This document shows, one piece after another, positions 30,001-36,000 of a DNA stretch of 37,089 nt. The position numbers were made by a program. Position 1 is the first letter of the stretch; the number at the start of each line of letters is the position of its first letter. The stretch lies in the NCBI GenBank assembly GCA_004347965.1, contig QNVF01000009.1, positions 1 through 37,089 of the forward strand. The letters are read 5' to 3'. This DNA comes from Candidatus Nezhaarchaeota archaeon WYZ-LMO8 (GTDB lineage: Archaea; Thermoproteota; Methanomethylicia; Nezhaarchaeales; WYZ-LMO8).

Positions 30001-33000
30001 TCAAGACAAAGCCCCTTCAACATAGCGTGCAAGAGCTAAGGCGCATCGGTATACAGCCAGACATTATAGTGGCAAGGTGTAAACAGCAGCTTGATGAAGA
30101 TTCAAAAAAGAAGATAGCGCTTTATAGTAACGTCCCCGAGGAAGCGGTTTTCACATCTTACGACGTCGAATGCATATATGAACTGCCAATAGTACTAGAC
30201 GAACAGGGAATGGGCGACTACATATGTAAACGGTTAATGCTAAATGCTTCTAAAGCGAATTGGTCCTCATGGAGAGAGATAGTTAGAAGGCACAAGTTCT
30301 TTAGGTATGAAGTTGATGTCTGCATGTGTGGGAAGTACACAAAGTTAAAGGACTCCTACATAAGCATAATAGAAGCTCTAAAGCATGCAGGAGCTTTCCT
30401 TGAAACAAAGGTCAACATGATTTGGCTCGAAGCTACACAGCTTGAATGCGATAAGGGAATGCCTGAGGAGTATCAGAAGACTCTGAGCTATTGTGATGGC
30501 ATAGTGGTTCTACCAGGTTTCGGTGCACGAGGAGCTCAAGGAAAGATGACCGTCATCGAGTATGCTAGGAAGAACAAGATCCCGTTCTTGGGAATATGCT
30601 TTGGAATGCAATTAGCCGTTGTAGAGTTCGCAAGGAATGTGGTGGGTCTCAAAGATGCAAATACCACTGAGCTTGACCCTTCTACAAACCACCCAGTAGT
30701 AGACCTGCTGCCGGAGCAACACTATGTTAAGGAAATGGGAGGTACGATGAGACTGGGTGCTCAAGCTACTGTTCTTGAACCAGGGACGAAGGTCTATGAG
30801 CTCTATGGAAGACCTATAATATTTGAGAGACATAGACACAGGTATGAAGTAAACCCTGCTTACTGGTCATTGCTTCAGAGCTATGGTATGATTTTCTCAG
30901 GTTATAGCGTTGATAAGCGAAGAGTAGAATTCATAGAGCTCAAGGATCATCCATTTTTCATAGCTACTCAGGCACATCCAGAATTTAAGTCGAGACCTAA
31001 TAGACCGTCGCCTCTATACTACGGCTTCTTAAAGGCTTGTCTAGAGTACAAGCTAAAGAAGTCGATGGCCTCTAATAGCTAATACGAACCCTTGAGAGAA
31101 GAGTAAGCTCTCTCTATCCTGGTTATAAATCTTCTAGCTGCTTCCTCAGGGTTTGACGATCTTGTTATCGCTGAGCCAACAATTACTATCTTGCAACCTC
31201 TCTTAACTAGTTCATCCACGTGTTCGAGCCTTACACCACCTGCTACGGCTACTGGAACCTTTACGCTGTTCACTATTTCCTCTAAGAGCTCCATTTTCTT
31301 TGTCACATCTCTCTCCCTCATCTGCACACTTATACCCATATGGACGCAAATTATGTCGCATCCAAGTCTCTCTACTTCCTTTGCTCTAGATACGGGGTCC
31401 GGCACATTTATGAGGTCGCACATGATCTTGACGTTGTACTTTCGAGCAGCACCAACAGCGTCCTTGATAGTATAGTCATCAGTGGCGCCTAGCACTGTAA
31501 CTATGTCCGCTCCAGCTTCAGCAGCTAACTCAACTTCAAGCCAGCCAGTGTCAAACGTCTTTAAGTCGGCAACTATAGTAGCGTAGGGAAACCTTCTTCT
31601 AAACTCCCTTACTGCCTCTAAGCCAGCAGACTTTATGAGTGGTGTTCCAACTTCAAGAATCTCAGCTCCTCCTTTGTAGCATGCTTCAGCTATGCTTAGA
31701 CCATCCTTCAAGTATCTTTCATCTATCGCTACTTGAAGCTTAGGTCCTTTGTAAAGTGGTTCTAAGCCTAATTGCTGAAGTTTCTTGTCCATAGGTATTC
31801 CATTATAGTTCCAGCCTCTAATCATGTAGTAAGCGTCGAGCAGCCTCGTTAAATCAACTATTTCTCCTTTTGCAGCTCCTTCCTTCAATCCCTCGCTTAA
31901 GAACCTAGGAGGTAGAGTGTCGTGTGATCTATTGAACCCCTCCCTAACGTTAAACAGCCTTTCTAAGTTGTATATTCTCTCTCCTATCTTATAGAACTCT
32001 TCTTCATCAACGTAGAAACCTGTCGCCGTTGTTAATAGCCTTGCGTAATGCGTTGCCTCATAGGCTAATGTCGAGAATAAGGCGAGCATGGTGTACTTGC
32101 ACACCACTAAAGAGTCTATTACAGCTGAGACATCTTGCAATCTCTTAACGAGCTCGGCTTTACCTTCATAGGAGAGGGGGTCTATGTACCTTGGTATGCC
32201 CAGTATCTCACTCATCACTATGTAAGCTCTCAAGTGGCATCCCCCTCTATTGGATGTTGCGTAAGCCAAGGCCATGCCCTTTGCCCCTCGAGGATCGTAA
32301 GCCGGCAGCTCCAATCCTTTCACGTGAGCAGCTATACCCTCAGCACCTATCATCTTCGCTATTCGATCAACTCCCTCACTTGCAATTCTTCCTAGACCCC
32401 TCTTGCAGGCTGTGTCAACGATAAGCTTTAACAGTACGTCAGCATTACCAAAGCTTAGCTTTAAATTTACATCGCCAAGCCCTCTTAAAAGCCCCTTCTC
32501 ATAGCACTCCATTAAGAATCCTATAGTGTTTCCAATTGATATGGTGTCGAGACCTAGCTTGTTGCATAAGTCATTTGCTCGTGCTATGACGTTTATATCT
32601 GATATACCACAGTTAGGTCCCAAGGCCCATACGCTTTCATACTCAGGCCCTGAAGATACTACTTCCTCCTCTCCAACCTTGTATTTTATTGAGCGAGCGC
32701 AAGCTATCGGACATCCATAGCATGCGGTTCTTCTTACCAGCATGGTTTCAGTAATTCTCTCCCCACAAACCTCCTCTGCTTTATCGAAGAAACCTCGTGT
32801 AAAGTTATAGGATGGAAGAACTCCTGCCTTATTCATCAAGTGAACCAGAAACGCTGTGCCATAGCGTCCAAGGCTATCTCCAGTAATTGGGTTCCCTCTT
32901 AAGACCTCAAGTGTCTTCTTAACCTCTTCATTGAATGCTCTCGGGTTTGCAACCTTCACTTCACCGGTGCCCTTGACTGCTATGGCCTTTAACTTTTTAG

Positions 33001-36000
33001 AGCCCATGACTGCGCCCAAGCCGCCTCTACCAGCTGCTCTATGCTTATTGCTTATTATGCAAGCCATTCTAACCTGGTTCTCTCCAGCAGGACCTATGCA
33101 ACACACCTCGACCTTCTCAAGCCCCAACTCTCTTCTTATAGCATCCTCTGTAGCATCGGTTTCAAGTCCCCATATCTTGCTTGCATCTCGAATCTCAGCT
33201 TTACCGTCGTCGACCACCAAGTATACTGGGCTAGAGCTTCTACCTCTGATGATTATGCCGTCAAACCCAGCCTTCTTCAGTTCAGGTCCCCAGGATCCTC
33301 CACAGTTAGAGTCGAAGATCGTGTTAGTCAATGGAGACTTCGATGACACAACGAATCTACCTGATGCTGGAGCTCTAGTCCCTGTGAGCGGGCCGGTCAT
33401 AAATATTAGCACGTTATCCTCGCTCAGTGGATCAATACCCGGCTTTAAAGCGTCAAAGAGAAGCTTTGCTGAATACCCTCTACCGCCTATAAACTTCATT
33501 GCTACGTTCCAGTCGAGATCTACGACCGCTACGTCGCCTTTACTCAAGTCTACCTCTAGTATCCTGCCACTGTAACCACTCAAACCAGGTCCCTAGCGAC
33601 TTTTTATTTCTCCTTATTTTTAAAGTGTAATTGAGGGTTTCTATCGTGAGGGTGAAAGTAGAGGTTTACGGGTCTCTGAGGAATGTGGTAGGCTGGAAGA
33701 GTGTGGAGATGGAGCTGAGCGAGGACTTTACGCTGGGACAACTACTTGATCTTCTTGTGGAGCAGAAGCCTGAGCTTAAGGAATTGATCTTTGAGGGCGA
33801 AAATTTAAGGGATTACTTAAAGGTGTTTGTAGATGGAAGAGATTGTAGGCTTTTAGGTGGTTTAAAAGCGAAACTTAAGGATGGCTCAACGATATCGATA
33901 TTTCCTCCAGCTGGTGGAGGCCTATTTGAAGCTTAGTTTAGTTATGGAATTCTCTCTTTTCTTCTTAAACTTAGGCATTGAGGATCAGGCTTCTCGCTAT
34001 GTCTCTTCGCATCACTTAAACCAACGAATATGGCTTCACAGTACTTGCACTTAAAAACTCTCCCAATGTTTCCCATGCGTATAAGGACTATATCTCTAGG
34101 TATGTCCTCACCGCCCAACCATTAGAACCCTCCTTAACTTCATCTCTTCGAGTTCGTAAACCCCCTTCTTCTCAAGACCGTACCTTCTAAAAGGCTTTGC
34201 TAGGTGTCTCATCGATCTTGGAGGAGGTAGGTATATTCCTTCGACTTCCTTCCTTGATATTCTTGAAGCAAGCTTAGTTGCTTCAGCAGTTTTAAATCCA
34301 CATCTGCTGCATTTATAGCCTCCTCCCCTTCCTAAGCTCTTCAATCTTTTTCGGCATCTAGGACACAACGGGTTCATCTCCATCACCTTCTCCCTTGCTC
34401 TCAGAATCATGAGCTTCTCAAGGTTTATGGAGAGGGCATCTAAGCCTAAGAGTCTTCTAGCTCCTCCATAGACCTCAACTTCATCGCCAACTTCAAGCTT
34501 CTCTGATGCTCGTCTCACATCACCTGATGGCTTGTATGCGACGCAGTACAGCTCCTCTACGCCATCAGATACTTTGAAGACCACGTGCCCCCCGCTTATG
34601 ACTTTAGGCTTCGATGCAACTTCACCCCTTAAGAGTATTGAGGAGTAGGGCTCTACCTCCCTTACTTTCTTAACTCTTAAGTAGTGGTAATCAGTGCCCT
34701 GATTGCTCCTAATAATCAAGTAGCCAATAGGCTTGCTGTACACCTTTAGGAGACTTGAAGCTTTGAGTAGAACTTGAGGGCTCTCTCCTCTTACGCCGTA
34801 GAGTACTGGATCAGGACCTCGAGGTGTTAGAAGTATTCTCCCAGTCTCTGGGTCGATGTTATTGAATGTGTAGGGCCAAGTCTCAAACTCCATGACCCAC
34901 ACGCTATTGTAGTCCAAGAGTCTCGTCTCCTCCTCACATCTGTAAGCTAAGATCTCGAAGGTGTAATCTCCCTCAGTGAGAGAACCTATAGCTGCTAGTG
35001 CACCTATGAGGCCCAGACCACTCCTGGTCTTAACTACTTTGACGTCGTGGCTTTGTGCTAGTTCTAAAGCTTCACGTAGGGCCACAACACGTCTCAAAGT
35101 TTTCTCATAGAAGTCTAAGAAGTCCTTGTGCAATTCTCCATGTAGTATGGCTATTGCTGGATCGCAGTCATGGTAACTTTGAGTATAGCTCTTAAGCATT
35201 AACGCTAGAAGTTCCTCGATCGATGAGATCACATTGCTTTGAGCCATTAACCTTAAGCACACAGCACCATTACCACGAGTCTTCCAAGGAATGTTGGGGT
35301 TCAACCTTGCTAGTATTGGATAGTCGAGTAACTTGACTTTATCATTAAAGCGCCTCATTATCTCCCTTAGAGCCTCAAACAAAAAGTGGGTTGTACATCC
35401 ACCACTTAAAGAGTCTACACTGTCAACACCTATGTGAAGTACATCGTAGGGCAATTCTCAACCCCGAGCTCCTGGGGAACAAGTATATTCTAAGCTTAAA
35501 TACCTGAAGTAGGTCCTCTTTATACGAGGTGCCGGGAGAGGTCGGGTAACTCTCGGGTGCCTTAGCACCTGAGGAAAGTCCCCCTCCATCGGGGAGCGCG
35601 GCGCCGTAAGGTGTCAACCGAGAGGTTGGGGGTAAAGCCTAAGAAACGACACGTCCACTAGCACATGGCTATGATGGGCTTAAAACCTTGAGGACGCTAG
35701 TGGAATCGTTGAAACGTGGCGACCTCCGCGCGGAATAAGGCGTACCGTGATGAGGTCCCCGACGAGCGGTAAGCCGCATAGTCGAATGTTACCTAAACAG
35801 AAGGGGGATTACGAACCTCACCCGGCACCTCATTAGTTGTACATTGAACCTCTACGTTCTTCCTATTGAAGATACAGTCAACCTCATGTGACGTAAACAA
35901 TATATAGGGTCTAATCACTATTCCTTATGCGCCACGGTGGCGGTGTCGAACGGACTATGAGGGGCTTCTCTCGCCCCTAGAATGAGAGTTCGACCTCCAG

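What a model noticed while it worked through the whole genome (the two positions that open the first line are those of the whole stretch)
31079..33583. Aldehyde:ferredoxin oxidoreductase fused to the only hexulose-phosphate synthase
Gene g01453 (834 aa) joins a complete tungsten-type aldehyde:ferredoxin oxidoreductase (residues 1-611) to a 3-hexulose-6-phosphate synthase domain (614-819), and it is the only HPS in the genome. I propose a channeling enzyme for pentose synthesis by the reverse ribulose-monophosphate route: HPS splits hexulose-6-P into ribulose-5-P and formaldehyde, and the fused AOR oxidises the toxic formaldehyde at once to formate while reducing ferredoxin. This would be a third archaeal solution beside the known Fae-Hps and Hps-Phi fusions, one that turns a biosynthetic waste product into low-potential reducing power.
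Evidence so far: Pfam: AFOR_N 6-206, AFOR_C 221-607 (481 bits, full model), OMPdecase/HPS 614-819 (119 bits, full model 1-221); NCBIfam names it 3-hexulose-6-phosphate synthase; Swiss-Prot best hit AOR_PYRFU 46.6% over 1-611. The only other OMPdecase-family gene is pyrF (g00730); PHI is separate (g00635, C16) and Fae is separate (g00549, C12). The same fusion of 800-860 aa occurs in about 90 of the 110 protein clusters returned for residues 560-834, from Nezhaarchaeales, Methanomethylicia, Thermoplasmata and Asgard (Hod-, Heimdall-, Thor-archaeota) MAGs, so it is a conserved architecture, not a local gene-call artefact. Paper searches found Hps-Phi and Fae-Hps fusions but no AOR-HPS fusion.
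(Added by a program. Inside this text positions count along the whole contig: contig position 1 is position 1 of the stretch shown here. "Call 12" and the like, gene names such as g00115 and contig names such as C1 are that model's own, and its searches are not shown. The text may have been shortened before it was handed on; [...] marks where a part breaks off. The agent that wrote the report below was given it as the finding of a first reader that could run no searches.)

Follow-up and report, generated by a model that had tools for sequence, protein, structure and literature searches.

The report
Aldehyde oxidoreductase fused to hexulose-phosphate synthase
One archaeal gene joins the enzyme that releases toxic formaldehyde during sugar-to-ribose conversion to a tungsten-type enzyme that can burn aldehydes, which probably shows how archaea lacking the usual formaldehyde carrier dispose of it.

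Summary
[quoted passage not shown] It is the only HPS found in this 93%-complete genome. PHI and ribose-5-P isomerase are present. Transketolase, transaldolase and RuBisCO were not found.

The fusion is a conserved family. Catalytic and cofactor residues of both halves are invariant in 50 members, dN/dS is about 0.03-0.06, and the AOR and HPS trees split the family the same way.

- AOR-HPS and Fae-HPS never share a genome in the class (38 vs 8 of 62).
- None of 16 Asgard carriers has Fae, against 198 of the other 285.
- In Asgard loci the gene sits beside a PHI-like gene.
- A MoaD-like gene is the commonest neighbour.

The architecture is already listed, without interpretation, in a 2024 supplement, and a fourth HPS fusion (HPS-MenG/RraA) is known. 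In passing, the adjacent pyrG carries two splice-motif-like micro-inserts.

The parts
31079..33583 (-). Whole AOR-HPS gene, 834 aa, TTG start, stop included
   Evidence: One open frame. Independent DNA contigs bridge the domain junction.
32966..33568 (-). AFOR_N domain (residues 6-206)
   Evidence: Pfam PF02730, 279.7 bits. Genome search places it at C78:32966-33568.
31763..32923 (-). AFOR_C domains 2 and 3 (residues 221-607), carrying the cofactor and cluster ligands
   Evidence: Pfam PF01314, 481.2 bits. C288, C291, C295, C495, E314, H450, D346 and D490 are invariant in 50 fused proteins. They align with the corresponding residues of 1aor. The residue roles are recalled from the P. furiosus AOR literature.
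32060..32077 (-). Six-residue insertion (residues 503-508), eight residues after the fourth cluster cysteine, specific to fused AORs
   Evidence: Present in all 36 fused rows, including the divergent subfamily. Absent from the 6 nearest unfused AORs, not matched by the 5 own paralogues, which align poorly over this stretch, and absent from 9mqx and 1aor. The segment C495..Y513 is 17 residues in 50 of 50 rows. Its function is unknown.
31742..31750 (-). Three-residue linker (residues 612-614) between the last AOR residue and the first HPS residue
   Evidence: 1aor's last residue aligns to residue 611. HPS 3ajx residue 2 aligns to residue 615. The spacing between L605 and Q617 is 11 residues in 45 of 50 rows and 12 in 5 of 50.
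31127..31738 (-). 3-hexulose-6-phosphate synthase domain (residues 616-819)
   Evidence: TIGR03128 scores 210.6 and 214.7 bits against a cut-off of 200. The solved HPS 9lj9_B scores 211 bits. D621, E644, D673, K675, D678 and H748 are invariant.
33631..33936 (+). Divergently transcribed MoaD/SAMP1-like small protein (101 aa), a likely sulfur carrier for pterin cofactor synthesis
   Evidence: Pfam ThiS 49.4 bits. NCBIfam SAMP1 69.9 bits (cut-off 60) and moaD_arch 60.6 bits (cut-off 49.5). A homologue lies beside the fused gene in L106 and L107, and in 9 of 10 Asgard loci.
33614..33624 (-). A/T-rich box about 31 nt upstream of the start codon, a possible archaeal TATA element
   Evidence: Read by eye. 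This is inference only. The sigma-70 scan is not applicable to archaea and was at chance level.

Best explanation
The gene encodes a bifunctional enzyme of the reverse ribulose-monophosphate route to pentoses. PHI, a separate gene, turns fructose-6-P into hexulose-6-P. The C-terminal HPS domain splits hexulose-6-P into ribulose-5-P and formaldehyde. The N-terminal tungstopterin/[4Fe-4S] AOR domain, joined through only three residues, oxidises the formaldehyde to formate and passes two electrons to ferredoxin.

Removing formaldehyde at its source pulls the otherwise unfavourable cleavage, prevents toxicity, and recovers low-potential electrons. This is the role Fae plays in Fae-HPS of H4MPT-containing archaea. 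Formate can then go to the genome's single formate-dehydrogenase-like enzyme.

Shown: the architecture, intact catalytic residues, purifying selection, the genomic context and the distribution. Inferred: formaldehyde as the AOR substrate, the cleavage direction, and any direct transfer between the two active sites.
For: 1. Both halves look functional.
- Full-length AOR and HPS models match.
- Cluster, pterin and catalytic residues of the AOR half and the six HPS active-site residues are invariant in 50 fused proteins.
- Against the closest relative, dN/dS is 0.034 for the AOR half and 0.057 for the HPS half.

2. The host needs HPS in the cleavage direction.
- This is the only HPS.
- PHI and RpiA are present.
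- Transketolase_N, transaldolase and RuBisCO were not found.
- 0 of 13 AOR-HPS genomes in families f1 and f2 have transketolase.
- 4 of 5 Asgard carriers have none and the fifth has a weak 26.7-bit hit.

3. It is usually the only HPS: in 25 of 38 carriers in the class and 11 of 13 in Asgard. 37 of 38 class carriers have PHI.

4. It is complementary to Fae.
- In the class, 38 genomes have AOR-HPS and 8 have Fae-HPS; none has both.
- Families f9 (0 of 32) and f2 (0 of 4) lack Fae altogether.
- 0 of 16 Asgard carriers have Fae, against 198 of the other 285 genomes sampled.

5. Synteny.
- 7 of 10 Asgard loci have a tandem-SIS protein next to the gene. The two that were tested have PHI as their best NCBIfam hit, at 126.8 and 143.3 bits against a cut-off of 160.
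- PFK is present in 3 of the 10 loci.
- A MoaD-like gene is present in 9 of the 10.

6. Fixed geometry. The linker spacing is constant in 45 of 50 rows and one residue longer in the other 5, and the insertion is specific to fused forms.

7. The two halves have evolved together. The AOR and HPS trees split the family into the same two groups.

8. An FDH-alpha-like gene is present for the formate.

Other authors have proposed that separate AORs oxidise RuMP-derived formaldehyde (PMC9723716 and PMC8065059 passages).
Against: - This genome's own family keeps a standalone Fae (7 of 9 relatives plus G000), so an alternative sink exists here.
- 14 of 25 carriers in family f9 have transketolase_N, so the RuMP route need not be their only pentose source.
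- 13 of 38 carriers have a second HPS.
- The AOR half is nearest to broad-range AOR (557 bits) and further from FOR (362 bits).
- Apart from the insertion, only two positions distinguish fused from unfused relatives, so nothing marks a formaldehyde-specific pocket.
- The insertion lies just after a cluster ligand. By recall, that is nearer the electron-exit side than the substrate channel.
- No structural model could be made.
- HPS family enzymes act as dimers (recalled). Whether the fusion allows this was not tested.
- Family f6 manages with a standalone HPS, no Fae and no adjacent AOR.
Confidence: 0.58

Rival explanations
1. The chemistry is the same but runs the other way, or in both directions. 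The AOR half reduces formate to formaldehyde with reduced ferredoxin. The HPS half immediately condenses the formaldehyde with ribulose-5-P, and that favourable condensation pulls the unfavourable reduction. The result is ferredoxin-driven formate assimilation, or a C5 + C1 to C6 conversion that feeds pentoses into glycolysis in organisms without transketolase.
For: - AOR-family enzymes are reversible (recalled).
- The formate/formaldehyde potential is quoted as -650 to -450 mV (PMC7143981 passage), which is within reach of ferredoxin if formaldehyde is kept very low.
- A three-residue linker would suit immediate capture.
- In Asgard loci the gene clusters with a PHI-like gene and phosphofructokinase.
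- Those genomes lack transketolase.
Against: - In G000 no other route to ribulose-5-P was found. Net flux must therefore be cleavage, at least for biosynthesis, and a fixation cycle cannot regenerate its acceptor.
- The anticorrelation with Fae, a formaldehyde consumer, fits a sink role.
- PFK adjacency does not indicate direction.
- No formate transporter or related context was examined.
Confidence: 0.15
2. The fusion serves co-expression only. The AOR half is a general aldehyde oxidoreductase, for example for amino-acid-derived aldehydes. Formaldehyde is at most a side substrate, and in this genome it is handled by the separate Fae.
For: - The nearest characterised relatives are broad-range AORs.
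- Only two clade-specific substitutions were found.
- Fae is present in G000 and most of its family.
- HPS is a promiscuous fusion partner: it is found with RraA-like, PHI, Fae, STAS and cupin-PGI domains.
Against: - Five unfused AOR paralogues already exist for general duty.
- The fused AORs form their own clade (90/98 support) with a private insertion.
- The strict exclusion of Fae-HPS, and the lack of Fae in f9, f2 and the Asgard carriers, is hard to explain without a formaldehyde link.
- The linker length is conserved across phyla.
Confidence: 0.17
3. The C-terminal domain is not a true HPS. It is another OMPDC-suprafamily sugar-phosphate lyase or decarboxylase whose aldehyde or keto product the AOR half handles.
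For: - The suprafamily contains look-alike enzymes such as KGPDC (hits of 53-63 bits).
- A divergent subfamily (L015, P0107, P0108) scores only 104-108 bits on TIGR03128.
Against: - The window's domain exceeds the curated HPS cut-off.
- It matches a solved HPS at 211 bits against at most 63 bits for KGPDC.
- It is the only candidate for an HPS function that the genome needs.
Confidence: 0.05

Closest known systems
Fae-Hps fusion of methanogens and other H4MPT-containing archaea (e.g. Mhun1628; NCBIfam NF009833)
   Same: HPS is fused to an enzyme that consumes the formaldehyde HPS releases. The fusion partner is N-terminal and HPS is C-terminal. The published rationale is immediate capture of formaldehyde (PMC5241800 passages). 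It occupies the same genomic niche: it is never found together with AOR-HPS in the 62 class genomes.
   Different: The partner is a 610-aa tungstopterin/iron-sulfur oxidoreductase, not the 160-aa Fae. The proposed product is formate plus reduced ferredoxin, not methylene-H4MPT. No H4MPT is needed.
Hps-Phi fusion of Thermococcales (P. horikoshii, T. kodakarensis; PDB 9lj9 is the best solved match to the HPS half)
   Same: It belongs to the same reverse-RuMP pentose route. The HPS halves are closely related (211 bits).
   Different: Hps-Phi joins two consecutive sugar-phosphate steps and leaves formaldehyde unhandled. Here PHI is a separate gene and the fusion partner is aimed at the C1 product.
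HPS-MenG / HPS-RraA-like fusion (Mhun0647; NCBIfam NF005442)
   Same: It is another HPS fusion. It is present as a second HPS in 10 of the 38 AOR-HPS genomes of the class. It is dominant in the Thermoplasmata-class sample.
   Different: Its C-terminal partner has no known function and its measured HPS activity is low (PMC5241800 passage). It is absent from G000.
Pyrococcus furiosus AOR (1aor) and FOR (1b25), tungsten aldehyde:ferredoxin oxidoreductases
   Same: The full domain set, the cluster cysteines and the catalytic Glu and His are shared. A MoaD-like gene lies alongside.
   Different: Those enzymes are stand-alone proteins of about 605-620 aa. The window's AOR half has a six-residue insertion eight residues after the fourth cysteine and continues into HPS. 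It is closer to AOR (557 bits) than to FOR (362 bits).
Cluster 12.2, 'AFOR_N-AFOR_C-CL0036(TIM_barrel)', KOs aor+++hxlA, in the supplement of 'Fusion/fission protein family identification in Archaea' (PMC11237513)
   Same: It is the same architecture: 14 proteins from Verstraetearchaeota, Nezhaarchaeota, Bathyarchaeota and others (supplement file 3, row 175).
   Different: It is a table row from an automatic pipeline. The main text contains no occurrence of 'aldehyde', 'AOR' or 'formaldehyde' and gives no functional reading. It does not list the Asgard members.

Membership tests
AOR family (tungsten-type aldehyde:ferredoxin oxidoreductases) | Full AFOR_N plus AFOR_C domains | tested here: met
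   279.7 and 481.2 bits, with both profiles covered end to end.
AOR family (tungsten-type aldehyde:ferredoxin oxidoreductases) | Four cysteines for the [4Fe-4S] cluster (CxxCxxxC plus a distant C) | tested here: met
   C288, C291, C295 and C495 align with the cysteines of 1aor and are invariant in 50 fused proteins. The ligand roles are recalled.
AOR family (tungsten-type aldehyde:ferredoxin oxidoreductases) | Active-site Glu and His, and the pterin-binding Asp residues | tested here: met
   E314, H450, D346 and D490 are invariant and align to the 1aor equivalents. The roles are recalled.
AOR family (tungsten-type aldehyde:ferredoxin oxidoreductases) | Tungsten (or molybdenum) pterin content and ferredoxin-linked aldehyde oxidation | not testable with these tools
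   The only indirect evidence is the MoaD/SAMP1-like neighbour.
FOR subfamily (formaldehyde:ferredoxin oxidoreductase) | Closest similarity to characterised FOR | tested here: not met
   1b25 scores 362 bits, against 557-566 bits for AOR-type chains.
3-hexulose-6-phosphate synthase (TIGR03128 equivalog domain) | Score over the curated cut-off | tested here: met
   210.6 bits and 214.7 bits, against a cut-off of 200.
3-hexulose-6-phosphate synthase (TIGR03128 equivalog domain) | OMPDC-suprafamily active-site residues (Asp after strand 1, Glu after strand 2, DxKxxD, His) | tested here: met
   D621, E644, D673, K675, D678 and H748 are invariant and align with solved HPS. The roles are recalled.
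3-hexulose-6-phosphate synthase (TIGR03128 equivalog domain) | Catalytic activity and dimeric assembly | not testable with these tools
Reverse RuMP pentose pathway (system) | HPS, PHI and ribose-5-P isomerase present; no alternative pentose route | tested here: met
   Searches are positive. Transketolase_N, TAL and RuBisCO were not found. The genome is 93.4% complete.
Fae-Hps type 'formaldehyde-capturing HPS fusion' | The partner domain is Fae | tested here: not met
   The partner is AOR. Fae is a separate gene on C12. The enzyme may work like Fae-Hps but is not a member.
Substrate-channeling bifunctional enzyme | A defined interface or tunnel between the two active sites, and kinetic evidence of direct transfer | not testable with these tools
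   Only the short, length-conserved linker and the clade-specific insertion are known.

The most novel reading that the evidence does not exclude
AOR-HPS is a natural, ferredoxin-driven formate-to-sugar module. The AOR half reduces formate to formaldehyde, and the fused HPS traps it on ribulose-5-P before it can escape. This would give a reversible C1 + C5 <-> C6 junction that lets transketolase-less archaea, including Hod/Heimdall-type Asgard lineages where the gene sits with PHI and PFK, assimilate formate or route pentoses into glycolysis.
Probability: 0.15. Interest if true: 0.9.

Novelty: new variant of a known kind. Interest (0 to 1): 0.6.

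Why it matters
The reverse RuMP route is the main archaeal way to make ribose, and each turn releases one formaldehyde. 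In H4MPT-containing archaea, Fae (often fused to HPS) takes the formaldehyde. What happens in lineages without Fae has only been guessed at: separate AORs were suggested in the passages read from PMC9723716 and PMC8065059.

A conserved fusion of HPS to an AOR is gene-fusion evidence that an AOR-family enzyme is the physiological sink. It replaces Fae-HPS genome by genome. It is spread over Nezhaarchaeales, Methanomethylicia, Bathyarchaeia-labelled MAGs and Asgard archaea.

The fusion also names a single protein on which to test this. If transfer is direct, it would be a rare case of a toxic C1 intermediate being passed from an aldolase to a tungsten enzyme, with recovery of low-potential electrons. 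If the enzyme is reversible, it is a ready-made module for the formate-to-formaldehyde step.

Tried and rejected
- Complex prediction (AOR half against HPS half, alignment A2) was unavailable.
No model, interface or tunnel analysis was therefore possible.
It returned only 7 fused loci (L017-L023) among 80, and no Asgard fused locus. I reached Asgard genomes through handle G062 instead.
- Two independent origins of the fusion (main clade against the divergent L015/P0107/P0108 clade) looked likely from the HPS tree. AU tests do not reject a single clade for either domain (p 0.489 and 0.415), and both clades share the insertion. The claim was dropped.
- I looked for unfused but adjacent aor and hps genes. 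None of 12 standalone-HPS loci (L112-L123) has an AOR within about 5 kb. The three 'split syntenic' assemblies in the PMC11237513 supplement were not located.
- In a Thermoplasmata-class sample (201 genomes around G063), none of the 150 listed HPS matches lies in an 800-860-aa frame.
- Expression: contigs of one RNA-library run from a related strain (90-99% alike) lie on both halves. One contig (31675-31784) crosses the junction but then continues into unlike sequence. Contigs cannot show transcription or its level.
- The sigma-70 promoter and terminator scan was at chance level and is not suited to archaea.
- The window has no tRNA genes.
- Orita 2006 (PMC1482999) is not held. What I say about T. 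kodakarensis is recalled or taken from citing passages.

Full report
THE OBSERVATION

Window 31079-33583 on the minus strand is one open frame of 834 codons starting with TTG. The first residues align with residue 1-2 of solved AORs, so the start is credible.

Pfam gives AFOR_N at 6-206 (279.7 bits), AFOR_C at 221-607 (481.2 bits) and OMPdecase at 614-819 (119.5 bits), each covering its whole profile. NCBIfam's HPS equivalog domain TIGR03128 scores 210.6 bits against a cut-off of 200.

Among solved structures, the N-terminal 611 residues match AOR-type chains best: 9mqx at 565 bits and 1aor at 557 bits. FOR (1b25) scores 362 bits and WOR5 243 bits. The C-terminal part matches HPS chains: 9lj9_B at 208-211 bits and 3ajx at 121-125 bits. 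KGPDC reaches at most 63 bits.

The last residue of 1aor aligns to residue 611, and residue 2 of the 3ajx HPS aligns to residue 615. Two complete enzymes are therefore joined by three residues.

Contigs of three other DNA runs from two other studies cover the junction with no differences (X9 record 20, X10 record 2, X12 record 8). The fusion is not an assembly artefact.

THE GENOME AROUND IT

The window is contig C78 of a 1.35-Mb assembly in 78 contigs, 93.4% complete.
- This is the only HPS over the cut-off. The second OMPdecase-family gene, on C20, is pyrF-like.
- PHI is a separate gene on C16 (181.7 bits).
- Fae is a separate 174-aa frame on C12.
- There are five further unfused AOR paralogues.

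In addition:
- Ribose-5-P isomerase is present.
- Transketolase_N, transaldolase and the RuBisCO large subunit were not found.
- One formate-dehydrogenase-alpha-like gene exists on C34.

On the genes found, hexulose-6-P cleavage by this protein is therefore the only visible source of ribulose-5-P.

IMMEDIATE NEIGHBOURS

The gene appears to stand alone. A MoaD/SAMP1-like gene lies divergently upstream at 33631-33936. CTP synthase converges on the 3' end. The other neighbours are housekeeping genes.

A CONSERVED FAMILY

Of 110 proteins returned for residues 560-834, 93 carry AFOR plus OMPdecase domains. Another 13 are HPS-RraA-like and 4 have other architectures. That search admits only proteins of 458-1460 aa, so these shares are not frequencies among HPS.

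Source names include Nezhaarchaeales, Methanomethylicaceae, Thermoprotei, Thermoplasmata, and Hod-, Heimdall-, Thor- and Promethearchaeota.

In an alignment of 50 full-length members:
- The four cluster cysteines, the active-site Glu and His and two pterin-binding Asp of the AOR half are invariant, as are six HPS active-site residues. The residue roles are recalled from the literature on these families.
- The spacing across the junction is 11 residues in 45 rows and 12 in 5 rows.

Against the closest relative, dN/dS is 0.034 for the AOR half and 0.057 for the HPS half.

Two features mark the fused AORs:
- They form one clade of 33 rows (support 90/98), separate from the nearest unfused AORs.
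- They carry a six-residue insertion eight residues after the fourth cluster cysteine. It is absent from the 6 nearest unfused relatives and from 9mqx and 1aor. The 5 paralogues in this genome align poorly over this stretch and none matches it.

Otherwise only two positions (K252 and T505) separate fused from unfused relatives.

The HPS domains of the family also form one well-supported clade, which includes four short standalone HPS. Both trees divide the family into the same two groups. The two halves have therefore travelled together.

A divergent subfamily (L015 in G015, P0107, P0108) has a longer linker and an HPS domain that groups with the Fae-HPS type. It shares the insertion. AU tests do not reject a single origin for either domain (p 0.489 and 0.415). 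I therefore do not claim two independent fusions.

DISTRIBUTION AND WHAT IT REPLACES

The class of the window's genome (62 genomes):
- 38 have HPS inside a frame of at least 780 aa. In 25 of these it is the only HPS at E <= 1e-20.
- 10 of the 38 also have an HPS-RraA-like protein and 3 also have a standalone HPS.
- Three of the six other genomes of the same genus have the second copy. 'Only HPS' is therefore true for G000 but is not a genus trait.
- 37 of the 38 have PHI over the cut-off.

Fae in the class (16 of 62 genomes):
- Eight genomes have Fae and HPS in one 314-448-aa frame (Fae-HPS). None of these has AOR-HPS.
- Families f9 (0 of 32) and f2 (0 of 4) have no Fae, and nearly all their members carry AOR-HPS.
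- The window's own family is the exception. It keeps a standalone Fae (7 of 9 relatives plus G000) beside AOR-HPS.

A sample of 301 Asgard genomes:
- 13 have full fused frames (814-859 aa) and 3 have probable partial ones. In 11 of the 13 the fused gene is the only HPS at E <= 1e-20.
- None of these 16 is among the 198 genomes with Fae.

These carriers are probably close kin, so the contrast is between clades. It is not 16 independent events.

Transketolase_N:
- Not found in any of the 13 carriers in families f1 and f2.
- Found in 14 of the 25 carriers in f9.
- Not found in 4 of 5 Asgard carriers; the fifth has a weak 26.7-bit hit.

A Thermoplasmata-class sample showed no fused frame among its 150 listed matches.

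GENE CONTEXT ELSEWHERE

Ten Asgard loci were examined:
- In 9 of 10, a MoaD/SAMP1-like gene follows the fused gene directly on the same strand.
- 7 of 10 have an adjacent 381-408-aa tandem-SIS protein. The two that were tested have PHI as their best NCBIfam match, at 126.8 and 143.3 bits, below the cut-off of 160.
- 3 of 10 have phosphofructokinase close by.

In two Methanomethylicales loci the MoaD-like gene is divergent upstream, as in the window. In one Asgard locus, electron-transfer flavoprotein genes precede the fused gene.

HOW IT MOST LIKELY WORKS

1. PHI isomerises fructose-6-P to hexulose-6-P.
2. The HPS domain cleaves hexulose-6-P to ribulose-5-P, which RpiA converts to ribose-5-P, and formaldehyde.
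3. The AOR domain oxidises the formaldehyde to formate and reduces ferredoxin.

Cleavage is the unfavourable direction of HPS (recalled). A tightly coupled, exergonic sink would pull it, as Fae is thought to do (PMC5241800 passages).

The strongest arguments are:
- the genome-by-genome replacement of Fae-HPS by AOR-HPS;
- the lack of Fae in most carrier lineages;
- the role of the fused gene as sole HPS;
- the PHI-like neighbour in Asgard loci.

Weaknesses:
- The substrate of the AOR half is inferred.
- The pocket shows no formaldehyde-specific change.
- G000 itself has Fae.
- Many f9 carriers have transketolase.
- Broad-range AORs do oxidise formaldehyde, and FOR has a poor Km for it. This is recalled, not checked here.

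RIVALS

(a) The reverse or bidirectional reading: formate reduction pulled by condensation. The formate/formaldehyde potential is quoted at -650 to -450 mV (PMC7143981 passage). This is chemically plausible and would be the most novel outcome. Against it, G000 has no other visible source of ribulose-5-P and no way to regenerate it.
(b) Fusion for co-expression only, with a generalist AOR.
(c) A non-HPS activity of the C-terminal domain, which the scores make unlikely.

LITERATURE

No main text describing an AOR-HPS fusion turned up.

Passages read in PMC9723716 (Culexarchaeia) and PMC8065059 (Brockarchaeota) propose that separate AORs oxidise RuMP-derived or free formaldehyde. PMC11291895 mentions only HPS-PHI and Fae-HPS alongside highly expressed AORs. 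PMC5241800 describes Fae-HPS and HPS-MenG.

The exception is PMC11237513. Its supplementary file 3, row 175, lists cluster 12.2, 'AFOR_N-AFOR_C-CL0036(TIM_barrel)', with KOs aor+++hxlA. It contains 14 proteins in 14 assemblies, plus six 'split syntenic' proteins in three assemblies. The main text of that paper has no occurrence of 'aldehyde', 'AOR' or 'formaldehyde'.

NCBI names such proteins AOR, HPS or OMP decarboxylase. The ESM Atlas has a 61-member cluster with this architecture. Subscription journals and bioRxiv supplements could not be searched.

VERDICT

The feature is real and conserved. Its architecture is already catalogued, but it has been neither interpreted nor characterised. Its best reading is an AOR-based counterpart of Fae-HPS. 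It is a new variant of a known kind. It would interest specialists in archaeal carbon metabolism and in C1 engineering, and it is directly testable.

NOTICED IN PASSING

The neighbouring CTP synthase gene is interrupted by two tiny inserts of 19 and 31 nt. Each has the build of an archaeal bulge-helix-bulge splice motif. Details are in the list of things noticed in passing and in the notebook.

Noticed in passing
window 29353-29611 (+); inserts at 29519-29537 and 29571-29601: The CTP synthase gene (pyrG) is split over three reading frames by two short inserts of 19 and 31 nt. Removing them restores, in one frame, the conserved sequence seen in the uninterrupted orthologue of G049.

Both inserts have the same build: a 4-bp helix (ACCC with GGGU), two 3-nt bulges and an inner hairpin. 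This resembles archaeal bulge-helix-bulge splice motifs; the motif definition is recalled.

The inserts are present in five aligned genomes, with a compensatory change in hairpin 1. Insert 2 is found once per genome in 9 of 10 genomes of family f1, and in none of the other 52 genomes in the class.

There is no RNA evidence. If the inserts are spliced, this is a protein-coding gene with two micro-introns.
   Followed up: partly
proteins P0037, P0039-P0043, P0045 (991-1014 aa): Longer relatives carry an AOR followed by two OMPdecase/HPS-like domains in tandem. The extra domain lies at about residues 594-787 of P0037.
   Followed up: partly
L015:241-2733 (+) in G015; proteins P0107, P0108: This is a divergent AOR-HPS subfamily. 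The AOR and HPS domains score lower, the linker is about 20 residues longer, and the HPS domain groups with the Fae-HPS type. It shares the six-residue insertion of the main family.
   Followed up: partly
proteins P0106 (708 aa), P0109 (678 aa): A triple fusion of HPS, cupin-type glucose-6-phosphate isomerase (PF06560) and a SIS/PHI-like domain. Three consecutive hexose-phosphate steps are joined in one chain.
   Followed up: no
proteins P0165 (968 aa), P0259 (329 aa), P0110 (610 aa): Further HPS architectures:
- three OMPdecase stretches plus SIS (P0165);
- STAS plus HPS (P0259);
- an unassigned 387-aa N-terminal region plus HPS (P0110).
Seen: Followed up: no
L110:3955-4620 (+) and L110:4626-5771 (-); similar tandem-SIS genes in L098, L100, L102, L103, L104: Asgard loci carry a tandem-duplicated PHI-like protein (381-408 aa, two SIS domains) next to AOR-HPS. 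One locus also has an extra 221-aa divergent HPS-like gene between the MoaD-like gene and the PHI-like gene.
   Followed up: partly
L097:5230-7018 (+), upstream of the fused gene at 7177-9699: In one Asgard genome (G177), electron-transfer flavoprotein beta and alpha genes lie directly upstream on the same strand as AOR-HPS. This hints at a different electron partner.
   Followed up: no
window 31079-31082: The stop-proximal ends of the convergent pyrG gene (29604-31082, +) and AOR-HPS gene (31079-33583, -) overlap by four bases.
   Followed up: no
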